The notes beneath the pieces were generated by a model. It worked only from the letters and a program-made list of their open reading frames with translations. It had not been told where the DNA came from and made no database searches. Both the position numbers and the translations under genes were made by a program. A stretch of DNA of 64,000 bases from an uncultured Thermococci archaeon (GTDB lineage: Archaea > Methanobacteriota_B > Thermococci > Methanofastidiosales > Methanofastidiosaceae): assembly GCA_964500005.1 (NCBI GenBank), contig CAZCMP010000002.1, positions 128,934 to 192,933 on the forward strand, in the 5' to 3' direction. Positions 597 through 61,941 of this stretch are shown piece after piece; positions within the stretch are counted from its first letter, which is position 1; every line of letters begins with the position of its first letter.

Positions 597-603
597 TGAT
601 CAT

Positions 604-2069: not shown

Positions 2070-2071
2070 TT

Positions 2072-8400: not shown

Positions 8401-8401
8401 A

Positions 8402-9376: not shown

Positions 9377-9380
9377 AAGT

Positions 9381-11240: not shown

Positions 11241-11313
11241 ATTCTATTCCTCTAATATTTTTTTTTCTATTAATGTATATAAATAATTATCGGTATTGTA
11301 ACATTATATTTAA

Positions 11314-15802: not shown

Positions 15803-15804
15803 AA

Positions 15805-20259: not shown

Positions 20260-20268
20260 GTGAACATC

Positions 20269-25173: not shown

Positions 25174-25251
25174 AGGATTACCTTGAGTATATAATAAAAA
25201 ATAATAAAGATTATTTAATGTTTATCCTATGTTTTGCGAATACCTCAAAGA

Positions 25252-42252: not shown

Positions 42253-42729
42253 TTGATGAAAGACCTAGAATTATTTCTTAAAACAGTCCTTAAAAAAAAA
42301 CTGGTCATAATAGGGGTGGGTAGTGAGCTTCGTGGCGATGATGGAGTCGGGCCATATCTATCGGAAAAACTTTCACAATTTAATGGTGAAAATTTTCTGA
42401 GTATAAATGGCGATTTAGTCCCAGAGAACTTTACCCAGGATCTACGAATGTTCAGGCCTGAGGAAGTAATTTTAATAGATGCAGCCTTTATGGAAAAATC
42501 TCCTGGCGAAATAGATATTATAAAAGTAAACGAATTATCGGGCGTGTCATTTTCATCTCATTCAATGCCACTATCGGTACTTGGAAGATACCTATCAAAT
42601 GAAATTGGGGCCAGTGTACATATTCTTGGGATACAGGCAGCGAATGTTGAGTTTGGAAACGATATTTCCCCAAAGGTTAAAGATGCTGCAGATAAAATAT
42701 TTGAAATCATTAAAATAGTGGTAGATTAG
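42253..42729 (+). CDS. [NiFe]-hydrogenase maturation endopeptidase (HycI/FrhD/HyaD family)
   Basis: Signature LVIIGVGSELRGDDGVGPY (GxGNxxxGDDGxG) in a ~158-aa protein. Confidence 0.7.
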   Translation: MMKDLELFLKTVLKKKLVIIGVGSELRGDDGVGPYLSEKLSQFNGENFLSINGDLVPENFTQDLRMFRPEEVILIDAAFMEKSPGEIDIIKVNELSGVSFSSHSMPLSVLGRYLSNEIGASVHILGIQAANVEFGNDISPKVKDAADKIFEIIKIVVD

Positions 42730-46075: not shown

Positions 46076-46106
46076 AATTTTATTTTATATAAAATTAAAA
46101 AATATT

Positions 46107-47756
46107 TTAGAATATATCTATTGCCCTAGAGAGAACGTTGCTTCCCCTATATTCAGGAAGTATCATGGGTGATTTTCTACTCTCCGGAACGCCTGCTTTT
46201 TTCAGCTGTTCAGAATATTTTGTAATGTGCGAAAGTGTTAGATTTCCAACAGATGCTTTCTTTGCATATCTTGCTGCAGAAATTCCTGCCCTTCTCCCAA
46301 AGACGGAGTAGTCCAGAAGAGAGTTTCCCATTAGCCTGTTCTTTCCATGAACTCCCCCAGTGACCTCTCCTCCAGCAAATAGCCCTTTTAATTCTGTTGC
46401 ACCACTTGCGTCTATCACTATCCCTCCATTTTGGTAGTGCAATGTAGGGAATACGAGTATTGGATCTTCAACCATGTTTATGCCAAACCTCTTAAACATC
46501 CTGTACATAGCAGATAGCTCCCTCTCTGTAACGCCTTCTCCTTTCAACATATTAATCATAGGCGAATCAAGCCATACTCCCTGCATTCCAGTCGGAGTTT
46601 CAACACCACCTGCTGCCCCATAACACTCTTTTATGAACGCTGCGCTTTCAACATCCCTTGGCTCAAGGGGGTGTACAAACATTTCCCCCTCTCTGTTCAA
46701 AGGCTGTGCTCCGAGACCTCTGACTTTTTCAGTTATTAATAGACCAACTATTTGTTCCGGGAAAGCGGCCCCTGTTGGGTGATACTGCACAGAATCCATA
46801 TCCCTAAGTCTCGCTCCGCACCTGTAAGCCATTGCAAGCCCATCTGCTGTTGCCCCATAATGATTTGTTGTTGGAAATCCTTGAATATGAAGCCTGCCAA
46901 ATCCGCCTGTTGCCATAACAGTTGCTTTAGCCCTAACGACGTAATATTGGGAGGTCTCGATATTGAAAAGAATGGCTCCAGCTACTTGGCCTTTATCGTC
47001 CATCAAAAGTTCTATTGCAGGTGAAAACTCAACTGCAGGGATTGATAAGTTTATGAATTCATCCCTAATAACCCTGAGTAGCTCCATTCCAGTATAGTCT
47101 TTAGCAGAGTGCATCCTTTTTCTTGATGTGCCACCACCATGGATGGTAATCATTGTTCCGTCCTTTTGCTTGTCAAACATGACCCCTTTTTCTTCAAACC
47201 ATTTTATCAAAGCAGGACCATCAGTAACTAGCGCGTCTACTAGTTCTGGATTATTTGCAAAATGGCCTCCTCCTATGACATCAAGATAGTGGATTTCAGG
47301 AGAATCGTTGGATTTGTCTGCCGCTTGTATCCCTCCTTGTGCCATAATCGAGTTTGAATCGCCGTGCCTTAACTTAGTTGTCATGAGTATATCGTCTGGA
47401 TCTATGCCCTCATACGTGGCCCAGATGCCTGCCATTGTTCCTGCCCCGCCTCCTCCAATAATGAGAAGGTCAACATCATAGTCGATGTTAGAAAGATCAA
47501 TATCTTTTTCAGATATACGGGGATATGCTTCAATTAAATCGGCAACTTCAAATGGAACTATCTCTCCCTTTGAGGAACCAACTGAAAGAGTTCTCTTTAC
47601 CTCGGGTTTGTAGTCTGGATGGTACTTGTTTAGAACATCGTCCCTCTCTTCCATTGACATCTGTTTATACTGTGCTTTGAGTCTTTTCTCCCTGGTCTTT
47701 TCAACCTTCTCAATAGATTCCCTCATAGATTCTGGATAACCTTTAATAAGCTTCAT
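46107..47756 (-). CDS. fumarate reductase/succinate dehydrogenase-type flavoprotein subunit (thiol:fumarate reductase TfrA-like) with ~95-aa N-terminal extension
   Basis: FAD Rossmann DLLIIGGGGAGTMAG, conserved FrdA/SdhA-type segments (…HYGATADGLAMAYRCG…, …HPTG…). Confidence 0.8.
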   Translation of the reverse strand: MKLIKGYPESMRESIEKVEKTREKRLKAQYKQMSMEERDDVLNKYHPDYKPEVKRTLSVGSSKGEIVPFEVADLIEAYPRISEKDIDLSNIDYDVDLLIIGGGGAGTMAGIWATYEGIDPDDILMTTKLRHGDSNSIMAQGGIQAADKSNDSPEIHYLDVIGGGHFANNPELVDALVTDGPALIKWFEEKGVMFDKQKDGTMITIHGGGTSRKRMHSAKDYTGMELLRVIRDEFINLSIPAVEFSPAIELLMDDKGQVAGAILFNIETSQYYVVRAKATVMATGGFGRLHIQGFPTTNHYGATADGLAMAYRCGARLRDMDSVQYHPTGAAFPEQIVGLLITEKVRGLGAQPLNREGEMFVHPLEPRDVESAAFIKECYGAAGGVETPTGMQGVWLDSPMINMLKGEGVTERELSAMYRMFKRFGINMVEDPILVFPTLHYQNGGIVIDASGATELKGLFAGGEVTGGVHGKNRLMGNSLLDYSVFGRRAGISAARYAKKASVGNLTLSHITKYSEQLKKAGVPESRKSPMILPEYRGSNVLSRAIDIF

Positions 47757-47764
47757 AAAAACAC

Positions 47765-48451
47765 CTACTCAATCGACCTCTTCTTGTAAAGCTCCTTTAT
47801 TTCATCCGGCTTCATAGATTTTAACTTTGAAATCTCTTCCTTTGTAATTCCGCTATTAACTTTGGCTACTGCTTCTTCTGTGTGGGCTGCTTTTGGAGCA
47901 ACAAACTTTCCATTAAGCCTTCTTGCAAGTTGCCCAACATGATACTGGGTAATTTCAGCTGGGCATCTAAAAGCACAAAGCCCGCACTGAACACAATCAA
48001 ATGATAGGGTGGCTGCCTTTTCTATATCCCCCCTTAGTGAAGCCTGGACATAATCCATTACCTTTAGCTCCTGTGGACAGACTTTTGTGCAGCTGTTGCA
48101 ACTGATACACCTCGCTATTTCAGGATACTCTTTTAGAAGTGCGTTGTGGGCAATATTGAGTTTTTCCATATCATACTTTTTCTTATTAGCAGGAGTAAAC
48201 GGAAGGTGGACAAGATACATGCCGTCCTCAACGGTGGTCTGGCATGCCAATGCTGATTTTAGCTTATAATCATTCTTTAATCTGTAAATGGTAGCGCAAG
48301 CACCACAAAAGCCAGCTCTGCAACCTGCCCCTCTTGTATACCTGTAGCCTGCATACTCCATGGACTTCATCAGGGTTAAGCCTGATGGAACTTTATACTC
48401 CTTACCCATAATAAATACACTTACCAACGGGATCTGATTTTTTTCAGCCAA
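47765..48451 (-). CDS. iron-sulfur subunit, SdhB/FrdB-like (N-terminal half of a TfrB-like protein)
   Basis: [2Fe-2S] motif GCRAGFCGACA and two CxxCxxCxxxCP clusters (CISCNSCTKVCP, CVQCGLCAFRCP). Confidence 0.7.
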   Translation of the reverse strand: MAEKNQIPLVSVFIMGKEYKVPSGLTLMKSMEYAGYRYTRGAGCRAGFCGACATIYRLKNDYKLKSALACQTTVEDGMYLVHLPFTPANKKKYDMEKLNIAHNALLKEYPEIARCISCNSCTKVCPQELKVMDYVQASLRGDIEKAATLSFDCVQCGLCAFRCPAEITQYHVGQLARRLNGKFVAPKAAHTEEAVAKVNSGITKEEISKLKSMKPDEIKELYKKRSIE

Positions 48452-49339
48452 CTATAACCCCCCTCTTTCTTCAAATTTATTTTTAATAAACATATAATCC
48501 TCCAAATATTTTTCATTGTTCTCTGAAAGAGAAATTCTCAATAATTCTGATAAATAAATAACAGGAGTTTTGTGATTTATTTTTCCTTTTTCAAACAAAC
48601 TCTTCTGTGCAGTTGTGAGATTGTATTGACAAAGTGGGCATGGGGTGACGATTACATCAGCCCCCTTGCTTTGAGAAATACTGACAATCCTCTGAACGCA
48701 ATCTGAGACCGCTTCTTTGTTTGTTATAATCTGATGTGCCCCACAGCACTCAACTGTCATTGGATTCTCAATAACTTCTGCCCCAAGAGCAGAAAGTATG
48801 TCGCCCATAATGTGCGGGGCGTCTTGATCATCTAGTGCGATTGTTTTTGGCCTAAGCAGCATACATCCATAATATGGGTCAACCTTTAGGTTTTTTAGAG
48901 GTGTTTTTACCTTTTCCTTAATTTTTTCAGGGCCTATATCATTATACAATACTTCTAGAAAATGCATGACCTCTATATTTCCTAAATAGTCTTCTTCTGT
49001 ATCCATGAAAAGGTTGACGTTATAGAGCTTGTCCGGATTGTTTTTATACAGCAAATTAACCTGTTTTAAAACGTTGTAGCACATTGAGCAAAGGGTCACA
49101 AGCTTATTAGTCTTAAGCTCCCTTCCCATTTCTTGTGCTCTTATCAGAGTCCTTGTGGCGGACAGATGGTCAGCCATAACATCTGACGTTAAGTTATATA
49201 CAACGCCACAACATGTCCAGCTAGGAAGCTCCTTTAGTTCAAATCCCAAAAGTTTTGCGACTTCAAATGCCGCCTCTTCATCCTTCTTCCCAGTAGTCTT
49301 TAGTGTACAACCTGGGTAATAAGGATACTCCATCACCAT
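48452..49339 (-). CDS. HdrB-like protein with two CCG (Cys-rich) domains
   Basis: Two CCG motifs (WTCCGVVYN…CSMCYN; VECCGAHQ…TPCPLCQYN). Abuts the SdhB-like gene with no gap. Confidence 0.75.
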   Translation of the reverse strand: MVMEYPYYPGCTLKTTGKKDEEAAFEVAKLLGFELKELPSWTCCGVVYNLTSDVMADHLSATRTLIRAQEMGRELKTNKLVTLCSMCYNVLKQVNLLYKNNPDKLYNVNLFMDTEEDYLGNIEVMHFLEVLYNDIGPEKIKEKVKTPLKNLKVDPYYGCMLLRPKTIALDDQDAPHIMGDILSALGAEVIENPMTVECCGAHQIITNKEAVSDCVQRIVSISQSKGADVIVTPCPLCQYNLTTAQKSLFEKGKINHKTPVIYLSELLRISLSENNEKYLEDYMFIKNKFEERGGL

Positions 49340-49737
49340 ACCCCCTTCTTAATTGCGGCAACTATTGCCATCTGGGGTATCTCTTCAATCATCTTTTCTA
49401 TGAATTCTTTGGAGTAGATATTTATGAAATCTTGATTATTTCTAAGCATGACGTTTCTCAAAGCTTCCATTATCTTTGCTATGTCAACGCTTCTTGGGCA
49501 TCTGGCAGAGCAGGTAAAACATGCTGCACATACCCAGAAGGTATTTTGGTCTAAGACTTCAAGATCGCCTATTTGGACAAACCGTATTACTTTGTTTGGG
49601 GCCATGTCCATACTGTCAACAACTGGGCAAGTTGCTGAGCATTTTCCGCACTGATAGCACTGGAATATATTCTGTCCCGATATCTCTTCAACAGCTTTTC
49701 TTAATTCCAATCCTTTCTCAGAAACGGTAAAGACCAC
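49333..49737 (-). CDS. HdrC-like 2x[4Fe-4S] ferredoxin subunit
   Basis: CYQCGKCSATCP and CAACFTCSARCP. Confidence 0.65.
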   Translation of the reverse strand: MVFTVSEKGLELRKAVEEISGQNIFQCYQCGKCSATCPVVDSMDMAPNKVIRFVQIGDLEVLDQNTFWVCAACFTCSARCPRSVDIAKIMEALRNVMLRNNQDFINIYSKEFIEKMIEEIPQMAIVAAIKKGVW

Positions 49738-51194
49738 TATATGCCCCTCCCAATCCTCTTGACAATCTCCATTTTCTTATTATACACCGATATCTCAATA
49801 GGTGATGTTCCAGGAAGGCAGTGTGTGGCACATGCAAAGCATGGGTCATAAGCTCTAAAGGCCATCTCTACCTTGTTTAATATACCATCATTGACTTTTC
49901 CGTTTCTAATCATGCCCTTTGCTGCGTCCCTTACAGACATGCATATGGCACCAGCATTGTTTGTGGTGGCGACTATCATATTTGCTTTCTCAATCGTTGC
50001 ATCCTCTGTTAGCTTGTAATGGTGGAATAATGTTCCCCTTGCAGCCTCTACTACCCCAACTCCTTCCGTTGGGAGGCCAACTTTGTTCCTAAGATCCTGC
50101 TTTAGAACATCCTTATCCCTAACAAGCTCCAAGGCCCTTTCAGAAACATATAGCAGCTCTATCAGCCTCGCCCAGTGGAAGGCGAGTGTTGAGTTCACAG
50201 GTTTTCCGAGTGTTTCAATCAACTCCTTGTATGATTCATTTGCGAGAGGTGTTGAGAATCCATCAATAACATTAATCCTACCCAATGGCCCAACGCGGTA
50301 GACCCCACTTTCAACACCACCTACAAGCCCTTTCCATCCAATATCTTTTAGATATGGGAACTTCATATAGGTCCAAGGCTCTACATGCTCCTCTATATAG
50401 TTGGCATAATCTTTTGCTTCAAAGCAAGCATACTCCTCATCTAGCGGACTCTTTACCCTTACCATTCCATCATAGAAGTTAAGATTGTTATTTTTATCTA
50501 CAAGCCCCATATTGTAAGTTTCAAGTGTATACGCATCACTTTTTATAAGGTCAAGATATCCCTTATTCTTTAGAACTGTATCTTTAAAGAAGTTTAATGA
50601 AAATTCAGAAAATTTAACGCAAGACTCGGCCATTTGCTCAATATCATTTCTTTCCTCTTCGTTCAGCCCTTTTGATATCCCACCGGGAAGCCCGCATACA
50701 GGATGTGTCGGTTTGCCGCCGAGGATCTTTGTTATCTTCTGACCATATGCCCTGTGCTTTATGACCTCTTTTCCTATCTCAACCCCAACTTTTCCTATAA
50801 CGCCTATGATGTTTCTATCACCTTTTGGAGCATCTGGCCCCACAACAAAGTCGGGCCCTCCAAGGAAGTAGAAGTGAAGTATATGGTCATATATAACGTA
50901 ACCACAGTACATTAACTCTCTTAGTTTTTTTGCAGTTTCTGTTGGCTCGGTATCAAAGGCAGCGTCCAAAGCTTTAGTTGAGGCAAAATGGTGGGCCACG
51001 GGACATACCCCACATATCCTTGAAGTAATCTGTGGCATATCTTCTGCCAATCTTCCTTCACTAAACTTCTCAAATCCTCTAAGCTCCGGTATCTGAAGAT
51101 AAGCATTTTCAACGTTACCTTTATCGTTTAGAAATATCTCTATTTTGCCGTGTCCTTCAAGTCTAGTTATCGGGTCAATTGTAATTCTTTTCAT
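49737..51194 (-). CDS. mvhA: [NiFe]-hydrogenase large subunit (F420-non-reducing hydrogenase MvhA-like)
   Basis: N-terminal Ni-ligand RICGVCPVAHH and C-terminal DPCFACATH motif; Cys, not Sec. Confidence 0.85.
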   Translation of the reverse strand: MKRITIDPITRLEGHGKIEIFLNDKGNVENAYLQIPELRGFEKFSEGRLAEDMPQITSRICGVCPVAHHFASTKALDAAFDTEPTETAKKLRELMYCGYVIYDHILHFYFLGGPDFVVGPDAPKGDRNIIGVIGKVGVEIGKEVIKHRAYGQKITKILGGKPTHPVCGLPGGISKGLNEEERNDIEQMAESCVKFSEFSLNFFKDTVLKNKGYLDLIKSDAYTLETYNMGLVDKNNNLNFYDGMVRVKSPLDEEYACFEAKDYANYIEEHVEPWTYMKFPYLKDIGWKGLVGGVESGVYRVGPLGRINVIDGFSTPLANESYKELIETLGKPVNSTLAFHWARLIELLYVSERALELVRDKDVLKQDLRNKVGLPTEGVGVVEAARGTLFHHYKLTEDATIEKANMIVATTNNAGAICMSVRDAAKGMIRNGKVNDGILNKVEMAFRAYDPCFACATHCLPGTSPIEISVYNKKMEIVKRIGRGI

Positions 51195-52162
51195 TTTATC
51201 ACCTTTCTCTTAATAAAGGATGAAGCAAGTGAATATCTGTAAAATGTCCCAACTGGATCCTTAATTTTAGAAACAAGTTCCTCTACCTTTTTCTCGTCTA
51301 ACTCTAACTCATTTTCAACTGCAAGTACTGAAGCTAGTGCTGATATCATCTTTGCACCTTGATCAGTTACCTCAGGGGTCTTGCCAAAGCAACCGGTACA
51401 AGGCATATTTCCTTTGATGCACTGATGGCCACAACCCGACCTTGTTGCAGGCCCCATGCATATTATGCCCTGATCAAGGAAACACTTTTCTGGGTCAGCT
51501 TCCTTCTCATAGACCCTGTAAATTGTTTCTATCATTTTGTCCTTCTTTTTCCTTGGGCAGTCATCACACAAAGCCTTTACAGGTGCTAAAACTGCACCTT
51601 TTGGCGGTAGATCGCCAGTCAAGAATTTAGTAAAGGCATCCTCCACAATATTTGGAGTTGGGGGGCACCCAGGTATATAATAATCAACATCAACAACCTG
51701 ATCAAGGGTCTTTACCGTATCGTAAAACTCAGGTATGTGAATCTCCCCTTCCTTGACTTTAAAAGAAGGTGTGGGCAAAATATTGTCTTTATTTACTGTT
51801 GTTTCAGTTTCCTGGTACGCCCTATCAAATATCAGGTTTTTGTTAAATAGGTTAGCCAGCGCAGGTATGCACCCTTCATGTGCGCAGGAGCCAAATGCAA
51901 CAAGGAGCTTAGATTTTTGCCTAAGTAACTTTGCAAGCTCTTCGTTTTCACTAGTTCTTATAGCCCCATTAAAAAAGCAGACATCAATAGACTTGTCCTT
52001 CATTTTTTTGAGATCTTCGTACTTGGTGTCCATGGCAACAGGCCACATCAGAATATTTGCTTTTTCAATTACATCTAGTATTTTTTCATTAATATCTAAA
52101 ACAGCAATCTCGCAGCCACCACATGAAGCGGCCCAGTAAAATGCTATGTTGGCTTTACTCAT
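51191..52162 (-). CDS. mvhG: [NiFe]-hydrogenase small subunit (MvhG-like)
   Basis: N-terminal YWAASCGGCEIA proximal-cluster motif and further Cys ligands. Confidence 0.8.
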   Translation of the reverse strand: MSKANIAFYWAASCGGCEIAVLDINEKILDVIEKANILMWPVAMDTKYEDLKKMKDKSIDVCFFNGAIRTSENEELAKLLRQKSKLLVAFGSCAHEGCIPALANLFNKNLIFDRAYQETETTVNKDNILPTPSFKVKEGEIHIPEFYDTVKTLDQVVDVDYYIPGCPPTPNIVEDAFTKFLTGDLPPKGAVLAPVKALCDDCPRKKKDKMIETIYRVYEKEADPEKCFLDQGIICMGPATRSGCGHQCIKGNMPCTGCFGKTPEVTDQGAKMISALASVLAVENELELDEKKVEELVSKIKDPVGTFYRYSLASSFIKRKVIK

Positions 52163-52581
52163 TTTGATTCCTCCATTTTAAGTGGAGATGGTCCTATCTC
52201 CTTAAGTTTGATAACCATATCATTGACAACATTCCTAAATTTGTTTCCTTCACTTGCCGAGATCCACTCTAATCTTAACCTTTCTTCTTCTAATCCCATA
52301 TCTTTTAACATCATTTTAAGAAGTTTTACTCGTCTAAGTGTTTTGTAGTTACCTTGGGCGTAATGGCAGTCCCCGGGATGACACCCCCCAACAAGGACCC
52401 CATCTGCACCTTTGGCAAAGGCATCTAGAATAAATGATGGGTCGACCCTTCCTGAACACATTACTCTTATTGGGACGGCATTTGGTGAGAATTTTAATCT
52501 TGAAACACCTGCAAGGTCTGCCCCTGCATAAGTGCACCATTTGCATAAAAAGGCTATAATTTTCGGTTCAAACTCATTCAT
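52159..52581 (-). CDS. mvhD: MvhD-like [2Fe-2S] hydrogenase/heterodisulfide reductase linker subunit
   Basis: 140 aa, Cys-containing (…FLCKWCTYAGADLAG…CSGRV…GGCHPGDCHY…), located between hdrA and mvhG. Confidence 0.7.
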   Translation of the reverse strand: MNEFEPKIIAFLCKWCTYAGADLAGVSRLKFSPNAVPIRVMCSGRVDPSFILDAFAKGADGVLVGGCHPGDCHYAQGNYKTLRRVKLLKMMLKDMGLEEERLRLEWISASEGNKFRNVVNDMVIKLKEIGPSPLKMEESK

Positions 52582-52586
52582 AAAAT

Positions 52587-54572
52587 CTACTCCAGTATGA
52601 CCTCAATCATCTTAAACATATTCTTAGATTCATCATTTCTCATTGTGGCAGCGCCACTTGGGCAAGCCGAAGCACATGTACCGCAACCCTGGCATAGCGC
52701 TTCATTTAATTTTGACCTCTTTATTTCCTTGCCATCTTTATTTGTAATCTCTGCCTCCAATGCTCCGTAAGGGCAAAGGGCGATACAGACCCCGCAACCG
52801 CTGCAAACATCCTCATCTATCTGACAAATCAAAGGCTCTTTGTGAAGGAAATCTGATGAAAACATCGAAAGGACTTTTGATGCTGCTGCTCCTGCCTGGG
52901 AAACTGATTCAGGTATGTCCTTTGGCCCTTGTGCTGCTCCAGCAAAGAATATGCCTGATGTCATGCTTTCAACTGGCCTTAACTTTGGATGCGCCTCCTT
53001 TAAGAATCCGTTTTCATCTAAGGATATTTTCAGTTTTTGTTTGATGTCAGCTATCCCTGATGAAGGCTCTATTGCCATAGCCAAGACCGCAAGATCAGCT
53101 TTCACTTCGACCTTTTTGCCAGTGAGGGTATCAACGCCCCAGACAATGACCTTATCGCCGTCTTCAAAGATTTTTGAAACTTTCCCCCTTGTGTAAAGGG
53201 CATGGTCCTCTTCTGTTGTCCTGTAATAAAACTCCTCATAGTCCTTTCCGGCAGTTCTAACATCAATATAGAAGACATACGCATTCCCATCGTGAACCTT
53301 GTGCTTGAACAGCATCGCATGTTTTGCTGTGTACATGCAACATATCTTTGAGCAGTAAGGCTTGTGCTCCTCTATATCCCTTGATCCTGCGCACTGGACG
53401 AATACAACATCCTTAACAGGCTTGCCGTCAGATGGCCTTACAATCTCCCCGCCTGTGGGGCCTGAAGCGGATAAAAGCCTCTCAAACTTGAGTCCGCTTA
53501 TAACATTCGGATACCGTCCTCCCCCATAGTCTGAAAGATTTTGAACAGGATATTCTTGGTAGCCTGTTGCAACAACAATTGCGCCTGCATCAACTTCAAT
53601 TATTTCCTCCTTCATATCAAAATCAATTGCCCCTAGCTTACATGTCTTTTCACAGATTTTGCATATCCCCTTAGTATAGTAAATGCAGTTTTCTCTGTCA
53701 ATTACCGGTTTGTTCGGAACAGCCTGCGGGAATGGTGTGTATATGGCCTTTCTTTTAGAAAGACCCTCTTGAAACTCCGAAGGAACTTTTACAGGACACT
53801 TTTCGTAGCAGTCACCGCAACCTGTGCAAAGGTTCCAATTGACAGATGTAGGCTTTTTCTTTATCTTAACTTTGAAGTTTCCAACATATCCTGTAACGCC
53901 CTCAAGTTCTGAGTATGTCAAGAGCTCAATGTTTGGATGATTAGAAGCCTCCACCATCTTGGGAGTTAGAATGCATTGGGAGCAGTCAAGTGTTGGAAAA
54001 GTCTCTGATAGCTTCGCCATCTTTCCCCCAATCGAAGAATCCCTTTCGACAAGGTAGGTCTTGTAACCGCCATTTGCAATGTCAAGTGCAGCCTGTATTC
54101 CTGTGACACCGCCACCAATGACAACGGCCTTCTTTGTGATTGGAACTTCTATATCTGTAAGGGAATTATCATTTTTTACCTTTTCAACGATGCTTTTAGT
54201 GATCTTGATTGCCTTTTCTGTAGCCCTATCCTTGTCTTCATGAACCCAGCTGCAGTGCTCCCTTATATTAGAAATCTCACACTGGTATGGGTTTAGCCCT
54301 GCATTTTTTGAGTTGACGCGAAAAGTTTTTTCATGTAATGTGGGAGAGCATGCGGCAACGACAACACGGTCAAGTTTTTCCTTTTTGATTGTCTCCCTCA
54401 TGAGCTTTTGACCGGGATCGGAGCACATGTAGATATAGGTGCCCGCGTATGCGACACCTTCCATTTTGGATACCTCTTGGGCAACTTTCTCAACATCAAC
54501 TGTTCCGGCAATGTTGGAGCCACAGTGACAAACAAAAACACCTACCCTAGGGGAAGAAGAGTTAGCATCCAT
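52587..54572 (-). CDS. hdrA: heterodisulfide reductase subunit A (FAD, multiple [4Fe-4S])
   Basis: N-terminal Cys cluster VFVCHCGSNIAG, FAD fold VVIGGGVTGIQAALDIA, internal and C-terminal ferredoxin motifs (CTGCGDCYEKCP; CSGCGVCIALCP, CQGCGTCASACP). Confidence 0.85.
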   Translation of the reverse strand: MDANSSSPRVGVFVCHCGSNIAGTVDVEKVAQEVSKMEGVAYAGTYIYMCSDPGQKLMRETIKKEKLDRVVVAACSPTLHEKTFRVNSKNAGLNPYQCEISNIREHCSWVHEDKDRATEKAIKITKSIVEKVKNDNSLTDIEVPITKKAVVIGGGVTGIQAALDIANGGYKTYLVERDSSIGGKMAKLSETFPTLDCSQCILTPKMVEASNHPNIELLTYSELEGVTGYVGNFKVKIKKKPTSVNWNLCTGCGDCYEKCPVKVPSEFQEGLSKRKAIYTPFPQAVPNKPVIDRENCIYYTKGICKICEKTCKLGAIDFDMKEEIIEVDAGAIVVATGYQEYPVQNLSDYGGGRYPNVISGLKFERLLSASGPTGGEIVRPSDGKPVKDVVFVQCAGSRDIEEHKPYCSKICCMYTAKHAMLFKHKVHDGNAYVFYIDVRTAGKDYEEFYYRTTEEDHALYTRGKVSKIFEDGDKVIVWGVDTLTGKKVEVKADLAVLAMAIEPSSGIADIKQKLKISLDENGFLKEAHPKLRPVESMTSGIFFAGAAQGPKDIPESVSQAGAAASKVLSMFSSDFLHKEPLICQIDEDVCSGCGVCIALCPYGALEAEITNKDGKEIKRSKLNEALCQGCGTCASACPSGAATMRNDESKNMFKMIEVILE

Positions 54573-54617
54573 TAAAAGTCATCTCTCTAATTTTGTAATA
54601 TTAGTATAATATTTCTA

Positions 54618-54710
54618 AATTTAAACGTTTTGGTTATAGGGAATAGATTATGCCAAATATTAACCAATAAATAAAGTTATTTTCGGATAAAATTGACAAT
54701 AAGTTTAATT
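54618..54710. promoter_or_regulatory. bipartite conserved upstream element, copy A (18-nt module + 43-nt module), ~96 nt upstream of the hdrA start
   Basis: aatttaaacgttttggtt (54618-54635) and taaataaagttattttcggataaaattgacaataagtttaatt (54668-54710) recur at 56532-56549 and 56581-56623 with 17/18 and 42/43 identity and the same internal spacing. Confidence 0.5.
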
Positions 54711-54742
54711 TTCCCGTATATAAAAGATATAAAAATTTATTT

Positions 54743-56819: not shown

Positions 56820-57701
56820 ATGATAGATGAAACCCTAGTAAAAAATACGGTAATTGAACTTCTAAGGGACTCATCAACGAAGCTTCCTTTAGATGTCAAA
56901 AATGCCTTGAACAAGGCGTATGAAATCGAGGAAGGGCCGGCAAAGGCCCAGTTAGAGGCCATATTAAAGAATATAAAAATGGCTGAGGAGTCTTCAACGC
57001 CACTTTGCCAGGATACTGGCGTCCACATATTTTTTGTTAAATTAGGGGACATTGGAAACCCTAAACTTGAGAAAAGATTGCCAAGCATTATCATAGAAGG
57101 GGTGAGGGAGGCCACAAAGAAAGTCCCCTTAAGACCCAATGCCGTTCATCCCATCACAAGAAAAAACCCCGGCGACAATGTAGGGGCTTATATGCCTTAT
57201 ATTAATTTCACGCCGATTGATACAGACTATATAGAGATAACTGCAATGCCCAAGGGGGCTGGGAGTGAAAACATGTCAAAAGTTGCGATGCTAAATCCCT
57301 CTGATGGTCTAAAGGGGATAAAGAAATTTGCACTCGACACGGTAGTTAGCGCAGGATCTAAACCTTGCCCGCCAACAATAATCGGGCTTGGCATCGGGGG
57401 GAGCGCTGACATCTCTATAAAGCTTGCAAAGATGGCATTGCTTAGGCCGATAGACCAGAGGCACCCAGACCCTGCTATAGCTGCTTTAGAAAAAGAGCTT
57501 TTTGATGCTTTTAATGCCCTTGGTATTGGAGTGATGGGTCTTGGAGGAAAGACAACTGTAATTGGTGTCAATGCAGAGCTTGGCTACTGCCACACAGCAT
57601 CACTTCCCGTTGCAATAAATGTCCAGTGCTGGGCAGGAAGAAGGGCAACTGCAAGAATCTATAAAGATGGGAGGGTAGAGCATCTGACCTACAAAAGGTG
57701 A
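56820..57701 (+). CDS. fumA: class I fumarate hydratase (Fe-S hydro-lyase), alpha subunit
   Basis: Motif PLCQDTGVHIFF and Fe-S hydro-lyase alpha architecture. Followed 4 nt later by the beta subunit. Confidence 0.85.
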   Translation: MIDETLVKNTVIELLRDSSTKLPLDVKNALNKAYEIEEGPAKAQLEAILKNIKMAEESSTPLCQDTGVHIFFVKLGDIGNPKLEKRLPSIIIEGVREATKKVPLRPNAVHPITRKNPGDNVGAYMPYINFTPIDTDYIEITAMPKGAGSENMSKVAMLNPSDGLKGIKKFALDTVVSAGSKPCPPTIIGLGIGGSADISIKLAKMALLRPIDQRHPDPAIAALEKELFDAFNALGIGVMGLGGKTTVIGVNAELGYCHTASLPVAINVQCWAGRRATARIYKDGRVEHLTYKR

Positions 57702-57705
57702 TGAT

Positions 57706-58302
57706 ATGGACAAAATACTAAATTTACCGCTTGATGAAAAAACTGTTAGGGATCTAAAGGTTGGAGAGACAGTTTATCTTAACGGGATTTTTTTTACTGC
57801 CCGAGATGAGGCCCACATGCATGCGCTAGAGTATGCCAAGGAGGGGAAGAAGATTCCCTATGACTTCAAAGGTGCGGCAATCTACCACTGCGGGCCCATA
57901 ATGGCAAAGGAAGGAGATAAATGGAGGGCTGTTGCAGCCGGCCCAACAACATCTACAAGGATGAACTCCTTGGAGCCGGAGTTTATCGAGAAGTTTAAGG
58001 TTTCGGCAATAATTGGAAAGGGAGGGATGTCCAAACCCACTGTTGATGCGATGCAAAAGTTTGGTTGTGTCTACCTTGCCATAACAGGCGGGGCTGCAGT
58101 CCTTGCAGCCAAGGGGATCAAGGAAGTCCTTGGTGTAGAGTGGTATGAGCTTGGGATGCCCGAAGCTTTGTGGGTCTTAGTTGGAGATAAGTTCGGCCCC
58201 TTAACTGTTGCAATTGATGCACACGGCAACAGCCTCTATGCTGATGTGGAAAAGGAAGTAGAGAAAAACATACCGAAGGCAAAGGAGATATTAAAGATTT
58301 AA
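57706..58302 (+). CDS. fumB: class I fumarate hydratase, beta subunit
   Basis: ~198 aa Fe-S hydro-lyase beta-type protein (…AIYHCGPIMAKEGDKWRAVAAGPTTSTRM…) directly downstream of the alpha subunit. Confidence 0.85.
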   Translation: MDKILNLPLDEKTVRDLKVGETVYLNGIFFTARDEAHMHALEYAKEGKKIPYDFKGAAIYHCGPIMAKEGDKWRAVAAGPTTSTRMNSLEPEFIEKFKVSAIIGKGGMSKPTVDAMQKFGCVYLAITGGAAVLAAKGIKEVLGVEWYELGMPEALWVLVGDKFGPLTVAIDAHGNSLYADVEKEVEKNIPKAKEILKI

Positions 58303-58311
58303 GGTGATTAT

Positions 58312-59667
58312 ATGGAGAAGTTATCAAAGGAAGATTTGATTAAAAAGGCATCAAAACCTGCAGAAGATGCCATGAAGCTTCACCCTTTTTACAAGGGAAA
58401 GATTGAGATCGCCTCAAAAGTTTGCATAAGGGATTTTTCTGATTTTGCTATATGGTACACGCCCGGAGTTGCGGAGCCATGCAAAGCCATAAACAAAAAC
58501 AAAGAAGCTGTTTTTGATCACACAAACAAGGGAAACGCGGTCGCTGTAGTTTCTGATGGGACAAGGGTTTTGGGCCTTGGAAATATTGGGCCAGAGGCCG
58601 CAATGCCGGTGATGGAGGGAAAGGCCCTACTTTTTAAGTATCTTGGAGGTGTTGACGCCTACCCGATATGCCTTGATACAAGGGATCCAGACAAGATTAT
58701 CGAAACATGCAAACTGATTAAGCCCACATTCGGCGGGATAAATCTAGAGGACATTGAAAAGCCCAAGTGCTTCTTTGTTTTGGACAGACTAAGGGCTGAC
58801 AAAGAAATGGACATACCCGTCTGGCATGACGACCAGCAGGGCACAGCAACAGTTGAAGTTGCGGGCGCCATAAACGCATTGAAGGTCGTTGGAAAGAAAT
58901 TAAATGAGGCGAACATAGTCCTTGTGGGAACTGGGGCTGCAAACATTGCAACTTCAAGGGTCTTAGTTGCTGCTGGTGCAAATAAGAAGAATATTATGGC
59001 AGTTGACTCTAAAGGGATATTGAACGCACAGAGGAAAGACCTTGAGATGGACAGACACAACAACCCCTTCAAATGGGACCTATGTGTCAATTCAAACAAG
59101 GAGCAGAGAAGTGGCGGGATAAAGGAAGCGCTAAAAGGTGCGGACATCTGCATAGCAGCGTCAAAGCCCGGTCCAGACACAATTAAGAGAGAGGAAGTAG
59201 CAGGGATGGCAACTGATGCAATCCTATTTGCTTCTGCCAATCCAATGCCAGAGATATGGCCATGGGAAGCGAAGGATGGAGGGGCAAGGATTGTGGGGAC
59301 TGGGAGAAGTGACTTCCCCAATCAGATCAATAACTCAATAGTATTCCCAGGAATATTCAGAGGTGCATTGGATGTTAGGGCAAAGACCATAACTGATGAG
59401 ATGTGTGTTGCTGCTGCTTTTGAGATTGCAAAGACTGCTGAGGACAAGGGGCTTTCTGATGAGTACATCGTTCCAAAGATGAGCGAGTGGGAGGTATTCC
59501 CAAGGGAAGCTGTTGCTGTTGGAATGAAGGCGATTGAGCAGGGCATTGCAAGGGTGAAATACAATAAAAACGAGCTCTACGAGATTGCTGAAAAGACAAT
59601 CAAAAAAGCAAGGGACGAAACACACATGATGATGAAGCACGGCATAATAGAGATGCCACCTGAATAA
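58312..59667 (+). CDS. NAD(P)-dependent malic enzyme (small prokaryotic type)
   Basis: N-terminal malic-enzyme segment (…LHPFYKGKIEIASKVCIRDFSDFAIWYTPGVAEPC…), NAD-binding LVGTGAANIA, 451 aa. Confidence 0.85.
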   Translation: MEKLSKEDLIKKASKPAEDAMKLHPFYKGKIEIASKVCIRDFSDFAIWYTPGVAEPCKAINKNKEAVFDHTNKGNAVAVVSDGTRVLGLGNIGPEAAMPVMEGKALLFKYLGGVDAYPICLDTRDPDKIIETCKLIKPTFGGINLEDIEKPKCFFVLDRLRADKEMDIPVWHDDQQGTATVEVAGAINALKVVGKKLNEANIVLVGTGAANIATSRVLVAAGANKKNIMAVDSKGILNAQRKDLEMDRHNNPFKWDLCVNSNKEQRSGGIKEALKGADICIAASKPGPDTIKREEVAGMATDAILFASANPMPEIWPWEAKDGGARIVGTGRSDFPNQINNSIVFPGIFRGALDVRAKTITDEMCVAAAFEIAKTAEDKGLSDEYIVPKMSEWEVFPREAVAVGMKAIEQGIARVKYNKNELYEIAEKTIKKARDETHMMMKHGIIEMPPE

Positions 59668-59701
59668 AAAAAAATTTTATTTTTTAATTATTTTTAATAA
59701 A

Positions 59702-61129: not shown

Positions 61130-61196
61130 AATAGCTAACTGTTTTTATTTATTTATATAATTTCCTTATTATTTACTGAATTTATGCGCAAAAGTA

Positions 61197-61916
61197 CTAT
61201 TCTAAGAATATTATCTTTGACAAGAATACCGTTATAGCTACACCTAAGACTGCTGGTGCCACCATGCCCGCCATTATTGCGATAAATGTCCAGAAAATAT
61301 TGCCTAAAAATGCTGTTAGGAGCAGGTTATTGTTCGGCTTTTCAGTCTTTAATGTCTTTAATATTATAGTCATCCCGATAAATCCAGAAAGGAGCCAGCC
61401 AAAAAAGTTACTTATTGGCACGTTGTAGTATGTACCTTGTGGCGACCAGATCCAGAAGTTTAGGGCGACAGCGCTTGGATCGAGCACTAGGTCAAAAATC
61501 GTTATTATCACACTTCCTGCCACCACTTTTTTTAAGATGGAAGTTTGATTTTTTAGTAGCCTCTCTGTTAGGGTCCAGGAGGCGATTACAAGCGGGACCC
61601 ACCCAAAGCTTACTGTCCAGGGGACCACGCCAATCTTGGGACCTAGGTTTGTTGTATATGAAAACAATCCGTAGGGAAGGCCTGTTAGAACACCTATTGA
61701 TTCTATAATCATTGAAAAAATGGACAAAATCAGGATTGCTGTTATTGCTTTTGTGGGATTAGTTTTTCTTATGAGATAGAAATATGTCGGGATTGAAAGA
61801 GAGACCATGAAAAAAATTGAGATGGCAAAATATTCCTGTTTGAATTCTACAAGGGATATAAATATCGCAGCTATTGCAATCGATATAGACATGACGGCTA
61901 TTATTATCTTTCTCAT
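61197..61916 (-). CDS. polytopic membrane protein (239 aa, ~7 TM), function unknown
   Basis: Hydrophobic helices throughout; no motif recognised. Confidence 0.4.
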   Translation of the reverse strand: MRKIIIAVMSISIAIAAIFISLVEFKQEYFAISIFFMVSLSIPTYFYLIRKTNPTKAITAILILSIFSMIIESIGVLTGLPYGLFSYTTNLGPKIGVVPWTVSFGWVPLVIASWTLTERLLKNQTSILKKVVAGSVIITIFDLVLDPSAVALNFWIWSPQGTYYNVPISNFFGWLLSGFIGMTIILKTLKTEKPNNNLLLTAFLGNIFWTFIAIMAGMVAPAVLGVAITVFLSKIIFLE

Positions 61917-61941
61917 AACTTGGACCTTTTTTAGAGAGTTT

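What the first reader, a model, noticed from the sequence alone, without database searches (positions are those of the whole stretch)
46107..54572. Single operon combining HdrA-MvhD-MvhG-MvhA with HdrC-like, HdrB-like, SdhB-like and FrdA/TfrA-like genes: candidate H2-dependent (bifurcating) fumarate reductase
Eight co-directional genes with overlaps or gaps of 12 nt or less, in order hdrA, mvhD, mvhG, mvhA, hdrC-like, hdrB-like (2 CCG domains), a 228-aa [2Fe-2S]/2x[4Fe-4S] SdhB-like protein, and a 549-aa FAD fumarate-reductase flavoprotein. In Methanobacteriales, thiol:fumarate reductase TfrB is a fusion of an SdhB-like and an HdrB-like part. Here those parts are separate genes abutting each other (48451/48452), and they are the only HdrB/HdrC-like genes in the cluster. 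That suggests the Hdr/Mvh electron-bifurcating module is wired directly to fumarate reduction rather than (or in addition to) CoM-S-S-CoB reduction. No mcr or CoM/CoB biosynthesis genes occur in this window.
Basis: partly seen in the sequence, partly recalled or inferred. Interest (0 to 1): 0.7.

Follow-up and report, generated by a model that had tools for sequence, protein, structure and literature searches.

The report
Hydrogenase–Hdr operon ending in fumarate reductase
A methanogen-related archaeon carries one tightly packed eight-gene operon that joins a hydrogen-splitting, electron-bifurcating Hdr/Mvh module to a soluble fumarate-reductase-like enzyme; the same arrangement recurs in many unrelated anaerobes, which suggests fumarate may be the long-sought electron acceptor of these complexes outside methanogens.

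Summary
Eight minus-strand genes (54572..46107), with junctions of -7 to +8 nt, encode HdrA, MvhD, MvhG, MvhA, a short HdrC-like protein, a two-CCG HdrB-like protein, a [2Fe-2S]+2x[4Fe-4S] protein and a 549-aa FrdA/SdhA-type flavoprotein. The window comes from a Methanofastidiosum-like archaeon.

The flavoprotein keeps every fumarate-binding and catalytic residue, but Asn replaces the covalent-FAD histidine. It also has a family-specific N-terminal domain. In 82 related loci from archaea and bacteria, the FeS+flavoprotein pair travels with HdrC'/HdrB' (44), HdrA (47) and Mvh hydrogenase (30), or with a Flx-like NAD(P)H module (9). Neighbours include 2-oxoacid:ferredoxin oxidoreductase, succinyl-CoA synthetase, fumarase and malic enzyme.

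HdrA is close to the genuine bifurcating HdrA. HdrB' is only 30-32% identical to methanogen HdrB and falls in a separate clade.

The best reading is a modular H2:fumarate oxidoreductase that probably co-reduces ferredoxin. This is inferred, not shown.

The idea is not new. Similar clusters were noted in tubeworm symbionts (2019), Cloacimonadota (2021) and Mnemosynellales (2022). In Methanofastidiosum these genes were annotated as ordinary MvhADG-HdrABC. Related MAGs carry extra hdrBC pairs elsewhere.

The parts
52587..54572 (-). hdrA: electron-bifurcating FAD/[4Fe-4S] subunit (661 aa)
   Evidence: 689 bits over its full length to HdrA of solved Mvh-Hdr complexes (8rvu_a, 5odc_A). NCBIfam HdrA2 794 bits, HdrA 618-622 bits, all below cut-offs.
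52159..52581 (-). mvhD: [2Fe-2S] connector between hydrogenase and HdrA (140 aa)
   Evidence: Pfam FlpD 182 bits; NCBIfam VhuD 136 bits.
51191..52162 (-). mvhG: [NiFe] hydrogenase small subunit (323 aa)
   Evidence: NCBIfam VhuG 223 bits; Pfam Oxidored_q6.
49737..51194 (-). mvhA: [NiFe] hydrogenase large subunit, group-3c-like (485 aa)
   Evidence: NCBIfam VhuA 417 bits. Has the RICGVCPVAH and DPCFACATH motifs plus a cleavable C-terminal tail.
49333..49737 (-). hdrC': short HdrC-like 2x[4Fe-4S] protein (134 aa, GTG start)
   Evidence: TIGR03290 74 bits against a cut-off of 160. Two CxxCxxCxxxCP motifs. Part of the conserved four-gene core.
48452..49339 (-). hdrB': two-CCG-domain protein with ligands for two non-cubane [4Fe-4S] clusters (295 aa)
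   Evidence: Pfam CCG x2. 120 bits and 30-32% identity to solved HdrB, whereas genuine HdrBs share 51-83%. Falls in a separate clade in an NJ tree. Cys 11, 43, 44, 84, 87 and 159, 198, 199, 234, 237.
47765..48451 (-). frdB': [2Fe-2S] + 2x[4Fe-4S] electron-transfer subunit (228 aa, TTG start)
   Evidence: Invariant C44/49/52/70, C115/118/121/125 and C153/156/159/163 in 49 homologues. Adjacent to the flavoprotein in 74 of 82 loci. Weak TfrB N-terminal and dhsB hits.
46107..47756 (-). frdA': soluble fumarate-reductase-type flavoprotein with an N-terminal extra domain (549 aa)
   Evidence: Pfam FAD_binding_2 222 bits; NCBIfam TfrA 316 bits against a cut-off of 718. Alignment to E. coli FrdA keeps HPT-His, TEK-Glu, PRD-Arg, HY-His and NRL-Arg, while His44 reads Asn. 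These residues are invariant in 51 sequences. AF2 model pLDDT 81; best fold match is E. coli FrdA, E 5.6e-29.
54573..54742 (-). AT-rich intergenic region upstream of hdrA, the likely promoter region of the operon
   Evidence: 170 nt with TTTAAAT/TATA-like stretches, read directly from the sequence. This is the only gap in the cluster longer than 8 nt. No transcript data are available.
56820..58302 (+). fumA/fumB: class I fumarate hydratase alpha and beta, divergent neighbour (supplies fumarate)
   Evidence: NCBIfam NF004885 351 bits (cut-off 276) and TIGR00723 222 bits (cut-off 145). Fumarase is adjacent in about 11-17 related loci, depending on detection method.
58312..59667 (+). malic enzyme (pyruvate + CO2 <-> malate), in the same divergent unit as fumAB
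   Evidence: NCBIfam PRK12861 312 bits. A malic enzyme gene recurs near the cluster in other phyla.
42253..42729 (+). HycI-type hydrogenase maturation protease (probably processes the MvhA C-terminus)
   Evidence: Pfam HycI 55 bits. Conserved near the cluster in L085 and L086.

Best explanation
The eight genes encode one modular cytoplasmic complex that oxidises H2 and reduces fumarate to succinate. MvhAG splits H2. MvhD passes the electrons to the bifurcating FAD of HdrA. The high-potential electron travels through HdrC' and the HdrB' non-cubane clusters (or alongside them) into the [4Fe-4S]/[4Fe-4S]/[2Fe-2S] chain of the FeS subunit. From there it reaches the non-covalently bound FAD of the flavoprotein, where fumarate (E0' about +30 mV) is reduced. 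The low-potential electron reduces ferredoxin. The net reaction is 2 H2 + fumarate + Fd(ox) -> succinate + Fd(red) + 2 H+.

In this Methanofastidiosum-like archaeon, the adjacent malic enzyme and fumarase feed the enzyme. The pathway is a reductive C4 branch (pyruvate -> malate -> fumarate -> succinate) used for biosynthesis and/or as an electron sink.

What is shown: the gene order, the cofactor motifs, the intact fumarate active site, the cross-phylum synteny and the interchangeable input modules. What is inferred: a physical complex, the direction of the reaction, bifurcation to ferredoxin, and electron flow without a free thiol/disulfide intermediate. In a methanogen, HdrB' may additionally turn over CoM-S-S-CoB; that would give the same net reaction.
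For: (1) The operon is tightly packed, with ribosome-binding sites before each internal cistron.
(2) The flavoprotein retains the E. coli FrdA residues H232, E245, R248, R287, H355 and R390. They are invariant in 51 homologues. Its best structural matches are genuine fumarate reductases and succinate dehydrogenases.
(3) The covalent-FAD His is an invariant Asn. From established FrdA/SdhA biochemistry, non-covalent FAD supports fumarate reduction but not succinate oxidation.
(4) In 82 loci, FeS sits next to the flavoprotein in 74. The four-gene core occurs in 44, core plus HdrA in 32, and the full set with MvhAG in 16. These include Thermoplasmata, Acetothermia, Thermotogae, Anaerolineae, and Heimdall-, Thor- and Promethearchaeota.
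(5) In 9 loci the input module is swapped for a Flx-like NAD(P)H dehydrogenase while HdrA, HdrC'B' and FrdB'A' stay.
(6) Neighbours are the enzymes that make fumarate or consume succinate and reduced ferredoxin: KorABG-type in 34 loci, SucCD in 11, fumarase in 11, malic enzyme in 8; at least one of these occurs in 45 of 82 loci. In the window they are fumAB and malic enzyme.
(7) HdrA is close to the solved bifurcating HdrA (689 bits). HdrB' belongs to a clade separate from methanogen HdrB, as expected for a dedicated partner.
(8) FeS, HdrC' and CCG tile the TfrB model. In TfrB, a CCG domain is known to exchange electrons with an SdhB-like chain feeding a fumarate-reducing flavoprotein (Heim 1998, cited in PMC6315080).
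(9) Independent authors reached similar ideas for related clusters (PMC6315080, PMC8542988).
Against: There is no biochemical, structural or transcript evidence for this family. No solved structure comes closer than generic SdhA/FrdA. The FeS subunit could not be modelled (pLDDT 58), so cluster-to-cluster distances and the docking site are unknown. HdrB' keeps both complete CCG motifs, so a thiol/disulfide site may still be active and a diffusible disulfide may mediate. About 20 loci have FeS plus flavoprotein with no Hdr gene within 10 kb, so Hdr coupling is not obligatory for the family. In this methanogen lineage the same genes were annotated as the canonical MvhADG-HdrABC (P0126), and only one mvhA is listed per related MAG. 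The module must therefore also serve methanogenesis in some way. sucCD is not listed in related MAGs, so the fate of succinate is unclear.
Confidence: 0.55

Rival explanations
1. A two-enzyme thiol cycle. FeS plus flavoprotein, together with HdrB', act as a thiol:fumarate reductase that oxidises CoM-SH + CoB-SH (or another thiol pair) to a disulfide. Mvh-HdrA-HdrC'B' then re-reduces that free disulfide with H2. This is the reading given in the genomic papers.
For: HdrB' keeps all ten CCG-motif cysteines. TfrAB works this way in Methanothermobacter (Heim 1998, cited in PMC6315080 and PMC9635834). The host lineage is a methanogen with CoM and CoB. PMC8542988 and PMC9635834 interpret similar clusters this way.
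Against: There is only one HdrB' in the operon, so the same site would both make and break the disulfide, and a free intermediate adds nothing. The identical cluster occurs in Thermotogae, Chloroflexi, Acetothermia and Asgard archaea, where CoM/CoB are not expected; this rests on my own knowledge and was not tested. The flavoprotein and FeS protein are not TfrA/TfrB equivalogs (316 against 718 bits; 41 against 385 bits).
Confidence: 0.2
2. An ordinary MvhADG-HdrABC heterodisulfide reductase for methanogenesis, with two unrelated redox genes that merely sit downstream.
For: The NCBI name of orthologue P0126 is 'hydrogenase MvhADGHdrABC ... subunit B'. Methanofastidiosa are described as using HdrABC/MvhADG (PMC7302380). 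HdrA and Mvh are close to the canonical proteins.
Against: HdrB' is 30-32% identical to methanogen HdrBs, which share 51-83% with each other. HdrC'-HdrB'-FeS-flavoprotein is a conserved unit even without hdrA/mvh, and it occurs in non-methanogens. The junctions are 0 and 8 nt, with ribosome-binding sites. Related MAGs have other hdrCB pairs.
Confidence: 0.08
3. The flavoprotein acts on a different substrate (L-aspartate or another enoate/dicarboxylate), or the complex runs in reverse, oxidising succinate and, together with reduced ferredoxin, evolving H2 (confurcation) in syntrophic settings.
For: L-aspartate oxidase models score nearly as well as Frd models (261 against 316 bits). The group 3c hydrogenase/Hdr system is reversible in principle. 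[quoted passage not shown]
Against: L-aspartate oxidases have no FeS partner, and here FeS is adjacent in 74 of 82 loci. Top fold matches are Frd/Sdh. Neighbours are fumarase, malic enzyme, Kor and Suc. The Asn at the covalent-FAD position argues against succinate oxidation. By my calculation from standard potentials, succinate plus Fd(red) to 2 H2 is endergonic by roughly 70 kJ under standard conditions.
Confidence: 0.12

Closest known systems
MvhADG-HdrABC, the H2:CoM-S-S-CoB,ferredoxin oxidoreductase of methanogens (solved: 5odc, 8rvu, 7bkb)
   Same: Same HdrA (689 bits), MvhD, MvhG and MvhA modules and the same HdrC-HdrB type of high-potential branch, with complete CCG motifs.
   Different: HdrB' is only 30-32% identical and HdrC' is about 50 residues shorter. 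Two extra subunits (FeS and FAD) extend the high-potential branch to a fumarate site. The cluster also occurs in non-methanogens.
Thiol:fumarate reductase TfrAB of Methanothermobacter (Heim et al. 1998)
   Same: A soluble fumarate reductase in which a 2Fe-2S/dicluster chain connects CCG domains to an FrdA-type flavoprotein. The three window proteins tile the TfrB model.
   Different: TfrB is one fused polypeptide, whereas here there are three genes with an additional HdrC-type dicluster. The flavoprotein scores 316 against a TfrA cut-off of 718, has a 92-aa N-terminal domain and lacks the C-terminal 120 residues of the TfrA model. It is also linked to HdrA and a hydrogenase.
tfrAB + korABCD interspersed with flxABCD-hdrABC in tubeworm symbionts and Thioflavicoccus (Rubin-Blum 2019, PMC6315080); TFR + Mvh + Hdr + fumarase cluster in Ca. 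Celaenobacter (Williams 2021, PMC8542988); TFR syntenic to an Hdr-like complex in Mnemosynellales (Adam 2022, PMC9635834; my locus L021)
   Same: The same idea and the same kinds of genes: an Hdr bifurcation module clustered with a soluble fumarate reductase and with OGOR and TCA genes. Flx-type variants are also present among my loci.
   Different: These are genomic proposals only. I could not fetch the symbiont or Celaenobacter sequences, so I could not test whether their flavoproteins belong to this N-terminally extended family. None of the papers describes the Methanofastidiosum operon or its spread across phyla.
Five-subunit soluble NADH-dependent fumarate reductase FrdABCDE of Hydrogenobacter thermophilus (Miura 2008; described in PMC13147460)
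   Same: A biochemically proven soluble, irreversible fumarate reductase of the reductive TCA cycle, built from an FrdA/FrdB pair plus extra electron-input subunits.
   Different: The donor is NADH and its genes are dispersed. From memory, the extra subunits resemble HdrB/HdrC and GltD, but the paper is not held in the library and no sequence comparison was possible.
Type E succinate:quinone oxidoreductase / methylmenaquinol:fumarate reductase (SdhABE with a CCG-domain SdhE)
   Same: A CCG-domain protein partners an SdhA/SdhB pair. The best NCBIfam hit of HdrB' is the SdhE model (156 bits).
   Different: The score is far below the cut-off of 500. The cluster contains no quinone or membrane context, FAD is non-covalent, and HdrA and a hydrogenase are attached.

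Membership tests
MvhADG-HdrABC heterodisulfide reductase complex | HdrA with a bifurcating FAD domain and ferredoxin-type cluster domains | tested here: met
   689 bits over residues 6-660 to solved HdrA. Below NCBIfam equivalog cut-offs, partly because those models include a fused MvhD part.
MvhADG-HdrABC heterodisulfide reductase complex | Group 3c [NiFe] hydrogenase MvhA/G plus MvhD | tested here: met
   VhuA 417, VhuG 223 and VhuD 136 bits, FlpD 182 bits; both NiFe Cys motifs present. All are below the equivalog cut-offs. No hydrogenase-class tree was made.
MvhADG-HdrABC heterodisulfide reductase complex | HdrB orthologous to the methanogen CoM-S-S-CoB-reducing subunit | tested here: not met
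   30-32% identity, against 51-83% among HdrBs from three methanogen orders. Separate clade in an NJ tree without bootstrap. TIGR03288 145 against 345; NF041780 69 against 450. The CCG cysteines are nevertheless complete.
MvhADG-HdrABC heterodisulfide reductase complex | Catalyses heterodisulfide reduction coupled to ferredoxin reduction | not testable with these tools
   Requires an enzyme assay.
Thiol:fumarate reductase TfrAB | TfrA-type flavoprotein (NCBIfam NF004900 equivalog) | tested here: not met
   316 bits against a cut-off of 718. The match covers only model positions 6-427 of 546, and the protein has an extra 92-aa N-terminus.
Thiol:fumarate reductase TfrAB | TfrB as a single fused 2Fe-2S/dicluster/2xCCG polypeptide | tested here: not met
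   The domains are split over three genes. Each scores 29-41 bits against a cut-off of 385.
Thiol:fumarate reductase TfrAB | Uses CoM-SH + CoB-SH as electron donors | not testable with these tools
   Requires biochemistry.
Fumarate reductase / succinate dehydrogenase flavoprotein superfamily (FAD_binding_2, dicarboxylate-specific) | Substrate-binding and catalytic residues (E. coli FrdA H232, E245, R287, H355, R390) | tested here: met
   All align and are invariant in 51 family members (H326, E343, R367, H440, R474). Fold match to 1kf6_A, E 5.6e-29.
Classical membrane-bound SdhABCD/FrdABCD | Covalent 8-alpha-histidyl FAD, SdhA C-terminal helical domain, [3Fe-4S]-type SdhB and membrane anchor genes | tested here: not met
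   His44 position is an invariant Asn. No Succ_DH_flav_C hit. The FeS protein has two full CxxCxxCxxxCP motifs and scores 35 against 88 bits on dhsB. The cluster has no anchor gene.
Type E SQR / MFR (SdhE CCG-domain anchor) | SdhE equivalog | tested here: not met
   NF042965 156 bits against a cut-off of 500.
Published 'Hdr-linked soluble fumarate reductase' gene clusters (Flx/Mvh-Hdr + TfrAB-like + TCA genes) | Co-localisation of HdrA(BC), an input module (Mvh or Flx), an FrdAB-like pair and TCA-branch genes | tested here: met
   Present in the window and in related loci. Homology to the published examples was checked only for Mnemosynella (L021).
Hydrogenobacter NADH-dependent FrdABCDE | Sequence relatedness of the subunits | not tested
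   No sequence and no paper (PMC2580677) were available.

The most novel reading that the evidence does not exclude
Fumarate, not an unidentified heterodisulfide, is the physiological high-potential acceptor of a large share of the Mvh/Flx-HdrA complexes in non-methanogenic archaea and bacteria, including Heimdall-, Thor- and Promethearchaeota. In this family the HdrB' non-cubane clusters have been repurposed as an electron relay into a fumarate-reducing flavoprotein. The result is a thiol-independent, ferredoxin-generating H2(or NAD(P)H):fumarate bifurcase that directly powers 2-oxoglutarate synthase.
Probability: 0.3. Interest if true: 0.8.

Novelty: new member of a known kind. Interest (0 to 1): 0.55.

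Why it matters
[quoted passage not shown] A conserved operon that ends in an intact fumarate reductase offers a concrete, testable acceptor. If it is right, it would be a new bifurcating reaction, about 70 kJ per reaction more favourable than zero by my estimate. It would also link hydrogen oxidation directly to the reductive TCA branch and to ferredoxin supply for 2-oxoglutarate synthase. Finally, it would change how 'HdrABC' annotations are read in Methanofastidiosa and many uncultured lineages.

Tried and rejected
(1) By eye I first thought the catalytic Arg was lost ('VWLDSPMIN' against 'DLRHL'). Counting positions in the alignment showed that this Arg is R318, and that the true proton donor R287 (LGPRD) aligns with LEPRD. 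I withdrew the claim (note).

(2) The AlphaFold model of the FeS subunit was too poor for a fold search (pLDDT 57.6, pTM 0.36), so 'SdhB-like fold' remains untested.

(3) The sigma-70 promoter and intrinsic terminator scan gave counts equal to shuffled sequence. It does not apply to an archaeon.

(4) The window's own proteins are not in the contig index, so the source genome could not be scanned for a second hdrBC. I used the supplementary table of a related-MAG paper instead.

(5) Nobu 2016 (WSA2) and Miura 2008 (Hydrogenobacter FRD) are not held in the library.

(6) Searching the 95-aa N-terminal domain against 1.84 billion representatives returned mostly contig-end fragments. It showed only that the domain is always N-terminal and family-specific.

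(7) Searches for K18556/frdABCDE added nothing useful.

(8) I considered L-aspartate oxidase, APS reductase and tricarballylate dehydrogenase as identities for the flavoprotein. I rejected them on partner, neighbours, residues and fold matches.

Full report
**Observation.** Their sizes are 661, 140, 323, 485, 134, 295, 228 and 549 aa. The junctions are +5, -4, -4, -1, -7, 0 and +8 nt. Every internal start codon, including the GTG of the HdrC-like gene and the TTG of the FeS gene, is preceded by a GGAGG/GGTG-like motif. The only sizeable non-coding stretch is the 170-nt AT-rich region upstream of hdrA. A bacterial promoter/terminator scan was uninformative, as expected for an archaeon. One polycistronic unit is therefore the natural reading, but no transcript data exist.

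**Identities.** Pfam and NCBIfam confirm the identities at domain level.
- HdrA scores 794 bits on the HdrA2 model.
- MvhD scores 182 bits on FlpD.
- The VhuG- and VhuA-like hydrogenase subunits score 223 and 417 bits.
- The HdrC-like dicluster protein scores 74 bits.
- The two-CCG protein has SdhE (156 bits) and HdrB TIGR03288 (145 bits) as its best hits.
- The FeS protein gives weak 2Fe-2S and dicluster hits.
- The flavoprotein scores 222 bits on FAD_binding_2, and its best NCBIfam model is TfrA (316 bits).

Every hit is below the curated equivalog cut-off, so none of the proteins can be filed as a named enzyme by profile alone. Direct reading supplies the cofactor motifs. MvhA has RICGVCPVAH and DPCFACATH. 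HdrC' has two CxxCxxCxxxCP motifs. HdrB' has two complete CCG motifs (Cys 11/43/44/84/87 and 159/198/199/234/237). In the FeS protein, C44/C49/C52/C70 plus two CxxCxxCxxxCP motifs are invariant in 49 homologues.

**Source organism.** The closest genomes are a 'Methanofastidiosum sp.' MAG and a 'Thermococci archaeon' MAG, at 94-95% identity for the flavoprotein. Both carry the same cluster and the same flanks. Two Logan contigs repeat the arrangement. The window is therefore from a Methanofastidiosales (WSA2) archaeon, a lineage described as an H2-dependent methyl-reducing methanogen (PMC7302380). NCBI names one orthologue of the CCG protein 'hydrogenase MvhADGHdrABC CoB-CoM heterodisulfide reductase subunit B [Candidatus Methanofastidiosum ...]' (P0126). 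So these genes have been taken for the canonical heterodisulfide reductase.

**The flavoprotein.** I first suspected, by eye, that the proton-donor arginine was missing. Counting positions in the alignment to E. coli FrdA showed this was wrong. LGPRD (R287) aligns with LEPRD, and H232 (HPT), E245, R248, H355 and R390 are also present. In 51 family members these residues are invariant: H326, E343, R346, R367, H440 and R474. The histidine that carries covalent FAD in FrdA/SdhA is an invariant Asn135. From established work on FrdA His44 variants, this predicts non-covalent FAD and a bias towards fumarate reduction. The protein lacks the SdhA C-terminal helical domain (no Pfam hit). Instead it has a conserved N-terminal domain of about 92 residues. 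In a search of 1.84 billion representatives, that domain occurs essentially only at the N-terminus of this family. An AlphaFold model (pLDDT 81, pTM 0.85) matches E. coli fumarate reductase FrdA best (E 5.6e-29, about 450 columns). Next come Mycobacterium Sdh1, E. coli SdhA and the soluble flavocytochrome c3 fumarate reductases. No solved structure of a close relative exists.

**Comparative genomics.** The flavoprotein family is very conserved: 58-73% identity between archaea and bacteria. I tabulated 82 non-redundant loci by tblastn and by clustering all ORFs within 9 kb.
- The FeS gene is next to the flavoprotein gene in 74 loci.
- A CCG gene is present in 58, an HdrC-like gene in 48, HdrA in 47 and MvhA in 30.
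- The four-gene core HdrC'-HdrB'-FeS-flavoprotein is complete in 44, core plus HdrA in 32, and the full set with MvhAG in 16.
- The same eight-gene order occurs in Thermoplasmata, Acetothermia, Thermotogae, Anaerolineae, Heimdallarchaeota (including a complete genome), Thorarchaeota and Promethearchaeota.
- In nine loci the hydrogenase is replaced by Flx-like genes while HdrA, HdrC'B' and FeS+flavoprotein remain. These genes carry Fer4_22 and NAD_binding_1/FAD_binding_6/DHODB domains.
- In Bathyarchaeota, hdrA lies downstream of the flavoprotein gene.
- In a Methanofastidiosia MAG, in Theionarchaea and in Culexarchaeum, the four-gene core stands alone.
- Recurrent neighbours are 2-oxoacid:ferredoxin oxidoreductase alpha/beta/gamma (34 loci, usually directly downstream), succinyl-CoA synthetase (11), class I fumarase (11) and malic enzyme (8). 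At least one of these is present in 45 of 82 loci.

In the window, fumarase alpha/beta and malic enzyme form a divergent unit just upstream, separated from hdrA by an ABC transporter gene that is absent in L006. This pattern is what one expects if the enzyme reduces fumarate in a reductive C4/C5 branch and delivers reduced ferredoxin to 2-oxoglutarate synthase.

**The Hdr-like subunits.** HdrA is close to the HdrA of solved Mvh-Hdr complexes (689 bits, full length). HdrB' aligns over its full length with solved HdrB but at only 30-32% identity. HdrBs of Methanococcales, Methanobacteriales and Methanomicrobiales share 51-83% with each other. In a neighbour-joining tree without bootstrap, the window protein sits inside the large clade of CCG proteins from these clusters, and the four methanogen HdrBs form a separate clade. 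The three small proteins tile the NCBIfam TfrB model: FeS covers positions 19-83, HdrC' 124-222 and CCG 266-484. It also shows that the operon has one dicluster module more than TfrB, consistent with an extra electron entry from HdrA.

**A second hdrBC?** I could not scan the source genome. Table S2 of Zhang et al. 2020 (PMC7302380) lists genes for two mangrove Methanofastidiosa MAGs. In MF2, mvhA, hdrB and 'sdhA' are genes 1, 3 and 5 of one contig. In MF1, hdrC, hdrB and 'sdhA' are genes 2, 3 and 5 of one contig, and mvhA and fumA share another contig. Both arrangements match the cluster described here. MF1 has two further hdrC-hdrB pairs on other contigs, without 'sdhA', plus two hdrD. MF2 has one further pair. 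Only one mvhA is listed per MAG. So additional hdrBC copies exist in relatives, and the single HdrA-Mvh module may serve more than one acceptor branch. The same table shows hdrA-'sdhA'-hdrB-hdrC linkage in two Methanomassiliicoccales MAGs.

**Mechanism.** The best-supported reading is a modular soluble H2:fumarate oxidoreductase. The electron path is MvhAG, then MvhD, then the HdrA FAD, where bifurcation occurs. The high-potential branch runs through HdrC' and HdrB' into the FeS subunit and the non-covalent FAD, and on to fumarate. The low-potential branch goes to ferredoxin. Using standard potentials (H2 -414 mV, fumarate/succinate about +30 mV, ferredoxin about -500 mV), I estimate roughly -70 kJ per reaction. 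This is a calculation from textbook values, not a tool result. The shown elements are the gene order, motifs, active-site residues, synteny and module swapping. The inferred elements are complex formation, direction, bifurcation and independence from thiols. Because HdrB' keeps a complete disulfide-reductase-type site, a bound or free thiol/disulfide could mediate. In the methanogen, HdrB' may also reduce CoM-S-S-CoB. The net reaction would be the same.

**Rivals.**
- A thiol cycle between a TFR-like enzyme and Hdr, which is the published interpretation.
- A plain MvhADG-HdrABC with fortuitous neighbours.
- Another substrate, or the reverse (succinate-oxidising, H2-evolving) direction.

The evidence for and against each is given in the structured sections of this report.

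**Prior knowledge.** The general idea has been published at the genomic level.
- Rubin-Blum et al. 2019 found tfrAB and korABCD interspersed with flxABCD-hdrABC. They proposed a complex that shuttles electrons directly to OGOR and the fumarate reductase (PMC6315080).
- Williams et al. 2021 described a Cloacimonadota cluster with TFR, OGOR, fumarase, SCS, Mvh and Hdr (PMC8542988).
- Adam et al. 2022 noted a TFR syntenic to an Hdr-like complex in Mnemosynellales, which is my locus L021 (PMC9635834).
- A 2026 survey reviews these soluble fumarate reductases and the five-subunit NADH enzyme of Hydrogenobacter (PMC13147460).

I found no biochemical proof and no description of the Methanofastidiosum operon or of its spread across phyla. 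Recent papers still refer to 'an unidentified heterodisulfide' as the acceptor of Mvh-Hdr in Asgard archaea and WOR-3.

**Verdict.** It is an instance of an already proposed, still uncharacterised kind of system. Its value lies in giving a clear, testable candidate acceptor for Hdr/Mvh complexes outside classical methanogenesis, and in flagging a probable mis-annotation in Methanofastidiosa.

Noticed in passing
window 34965-35951 (-), 35917-36840 (-), 59702-61129 (-): A ribose-1,5-bisphosphate isomerase (NCBIfam equivalog 408 bits, cut-off 314), an adjacent PfkB/ribose-1-phosphate-kinase-like gene and a RuBisCO (PRK13475, 634 bits). Together these are components of the archaeal nucleoside/AMP salvage (pentose-bisphosphate) route, spread over 25 kb.
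   Followed up: partly
window 7558-26472 (-): Two T2SSF-like genes and a T2SSE ATPase gene are followed by six large ORFs (810, 386, 308, 1484, 1634 and 406 aa). These ORFs have no Pfam match except one FG-GAP repeat. This may be a pilus/adhesin surface locus of unknown function.
   Followed up: no
window 44717-46075 (+): A PaaK/coenzyme-F390-synthetase-like acyl-CoA ligase gene converges on the flavoprotein gene. It is conserved there in all Methanofastidiosum loci (L005, L006, L085) but not in other phyla. sucCD is not listed for related MAGs, so how succinate is activated is unclear.
   Followed up: partly
window 54743-56482 (-): An ABC exporter-type gene (fused permease/ATPase) lies between hdrA and the divergent fumAB-malic enzyme unit in the window, L005 and L085. 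It is absent in the otherwise identical L006.
   Followed up: no
window 46000-54000 and 58000-62000: GC content is 0.40-0.45 in the hdr/mvh/frd cluster and in the malic enzyme/RuBisCO region, against 0.36 for the whole window. The cause may be strong conservation, high expression or horizontal acquisition.
   Followed up: no
related loci L001-L086: Evolutionary rates are very uneven within the module. The flavoprotein (58-73%) and FeS protein (59-69%) are highly conserved between archaea and bacteria. The adjacent HdrB' and HdrC' are only 37-51% identical. Some loci (L018, L081, L082, L073) carry two HdrC/CCG pairs.
   Followed up: partly
loci L033, L050, L051, L066, L071, L074, L080 and others: About 20 loci (WOR-3, Stahlbacteria, some Thermoplasmatota) have the FeS + flavoprotein pair with no Hdr gene within 10 kb and with unrelated neighbours such as PEPCK, a peptidase and a RadA-like gene. 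The electron donor there is unknown.
   Followed up: partly
window 54-2968 (+): A four-subunit-type 2-oxoacid:ferredoxin oxidoreductase (gamma, alpha, beta) at the window edge scores as the pyruvate/2-ketoisovalerate type rather than the 2-oxoglutarate type.
   Followed up: yes
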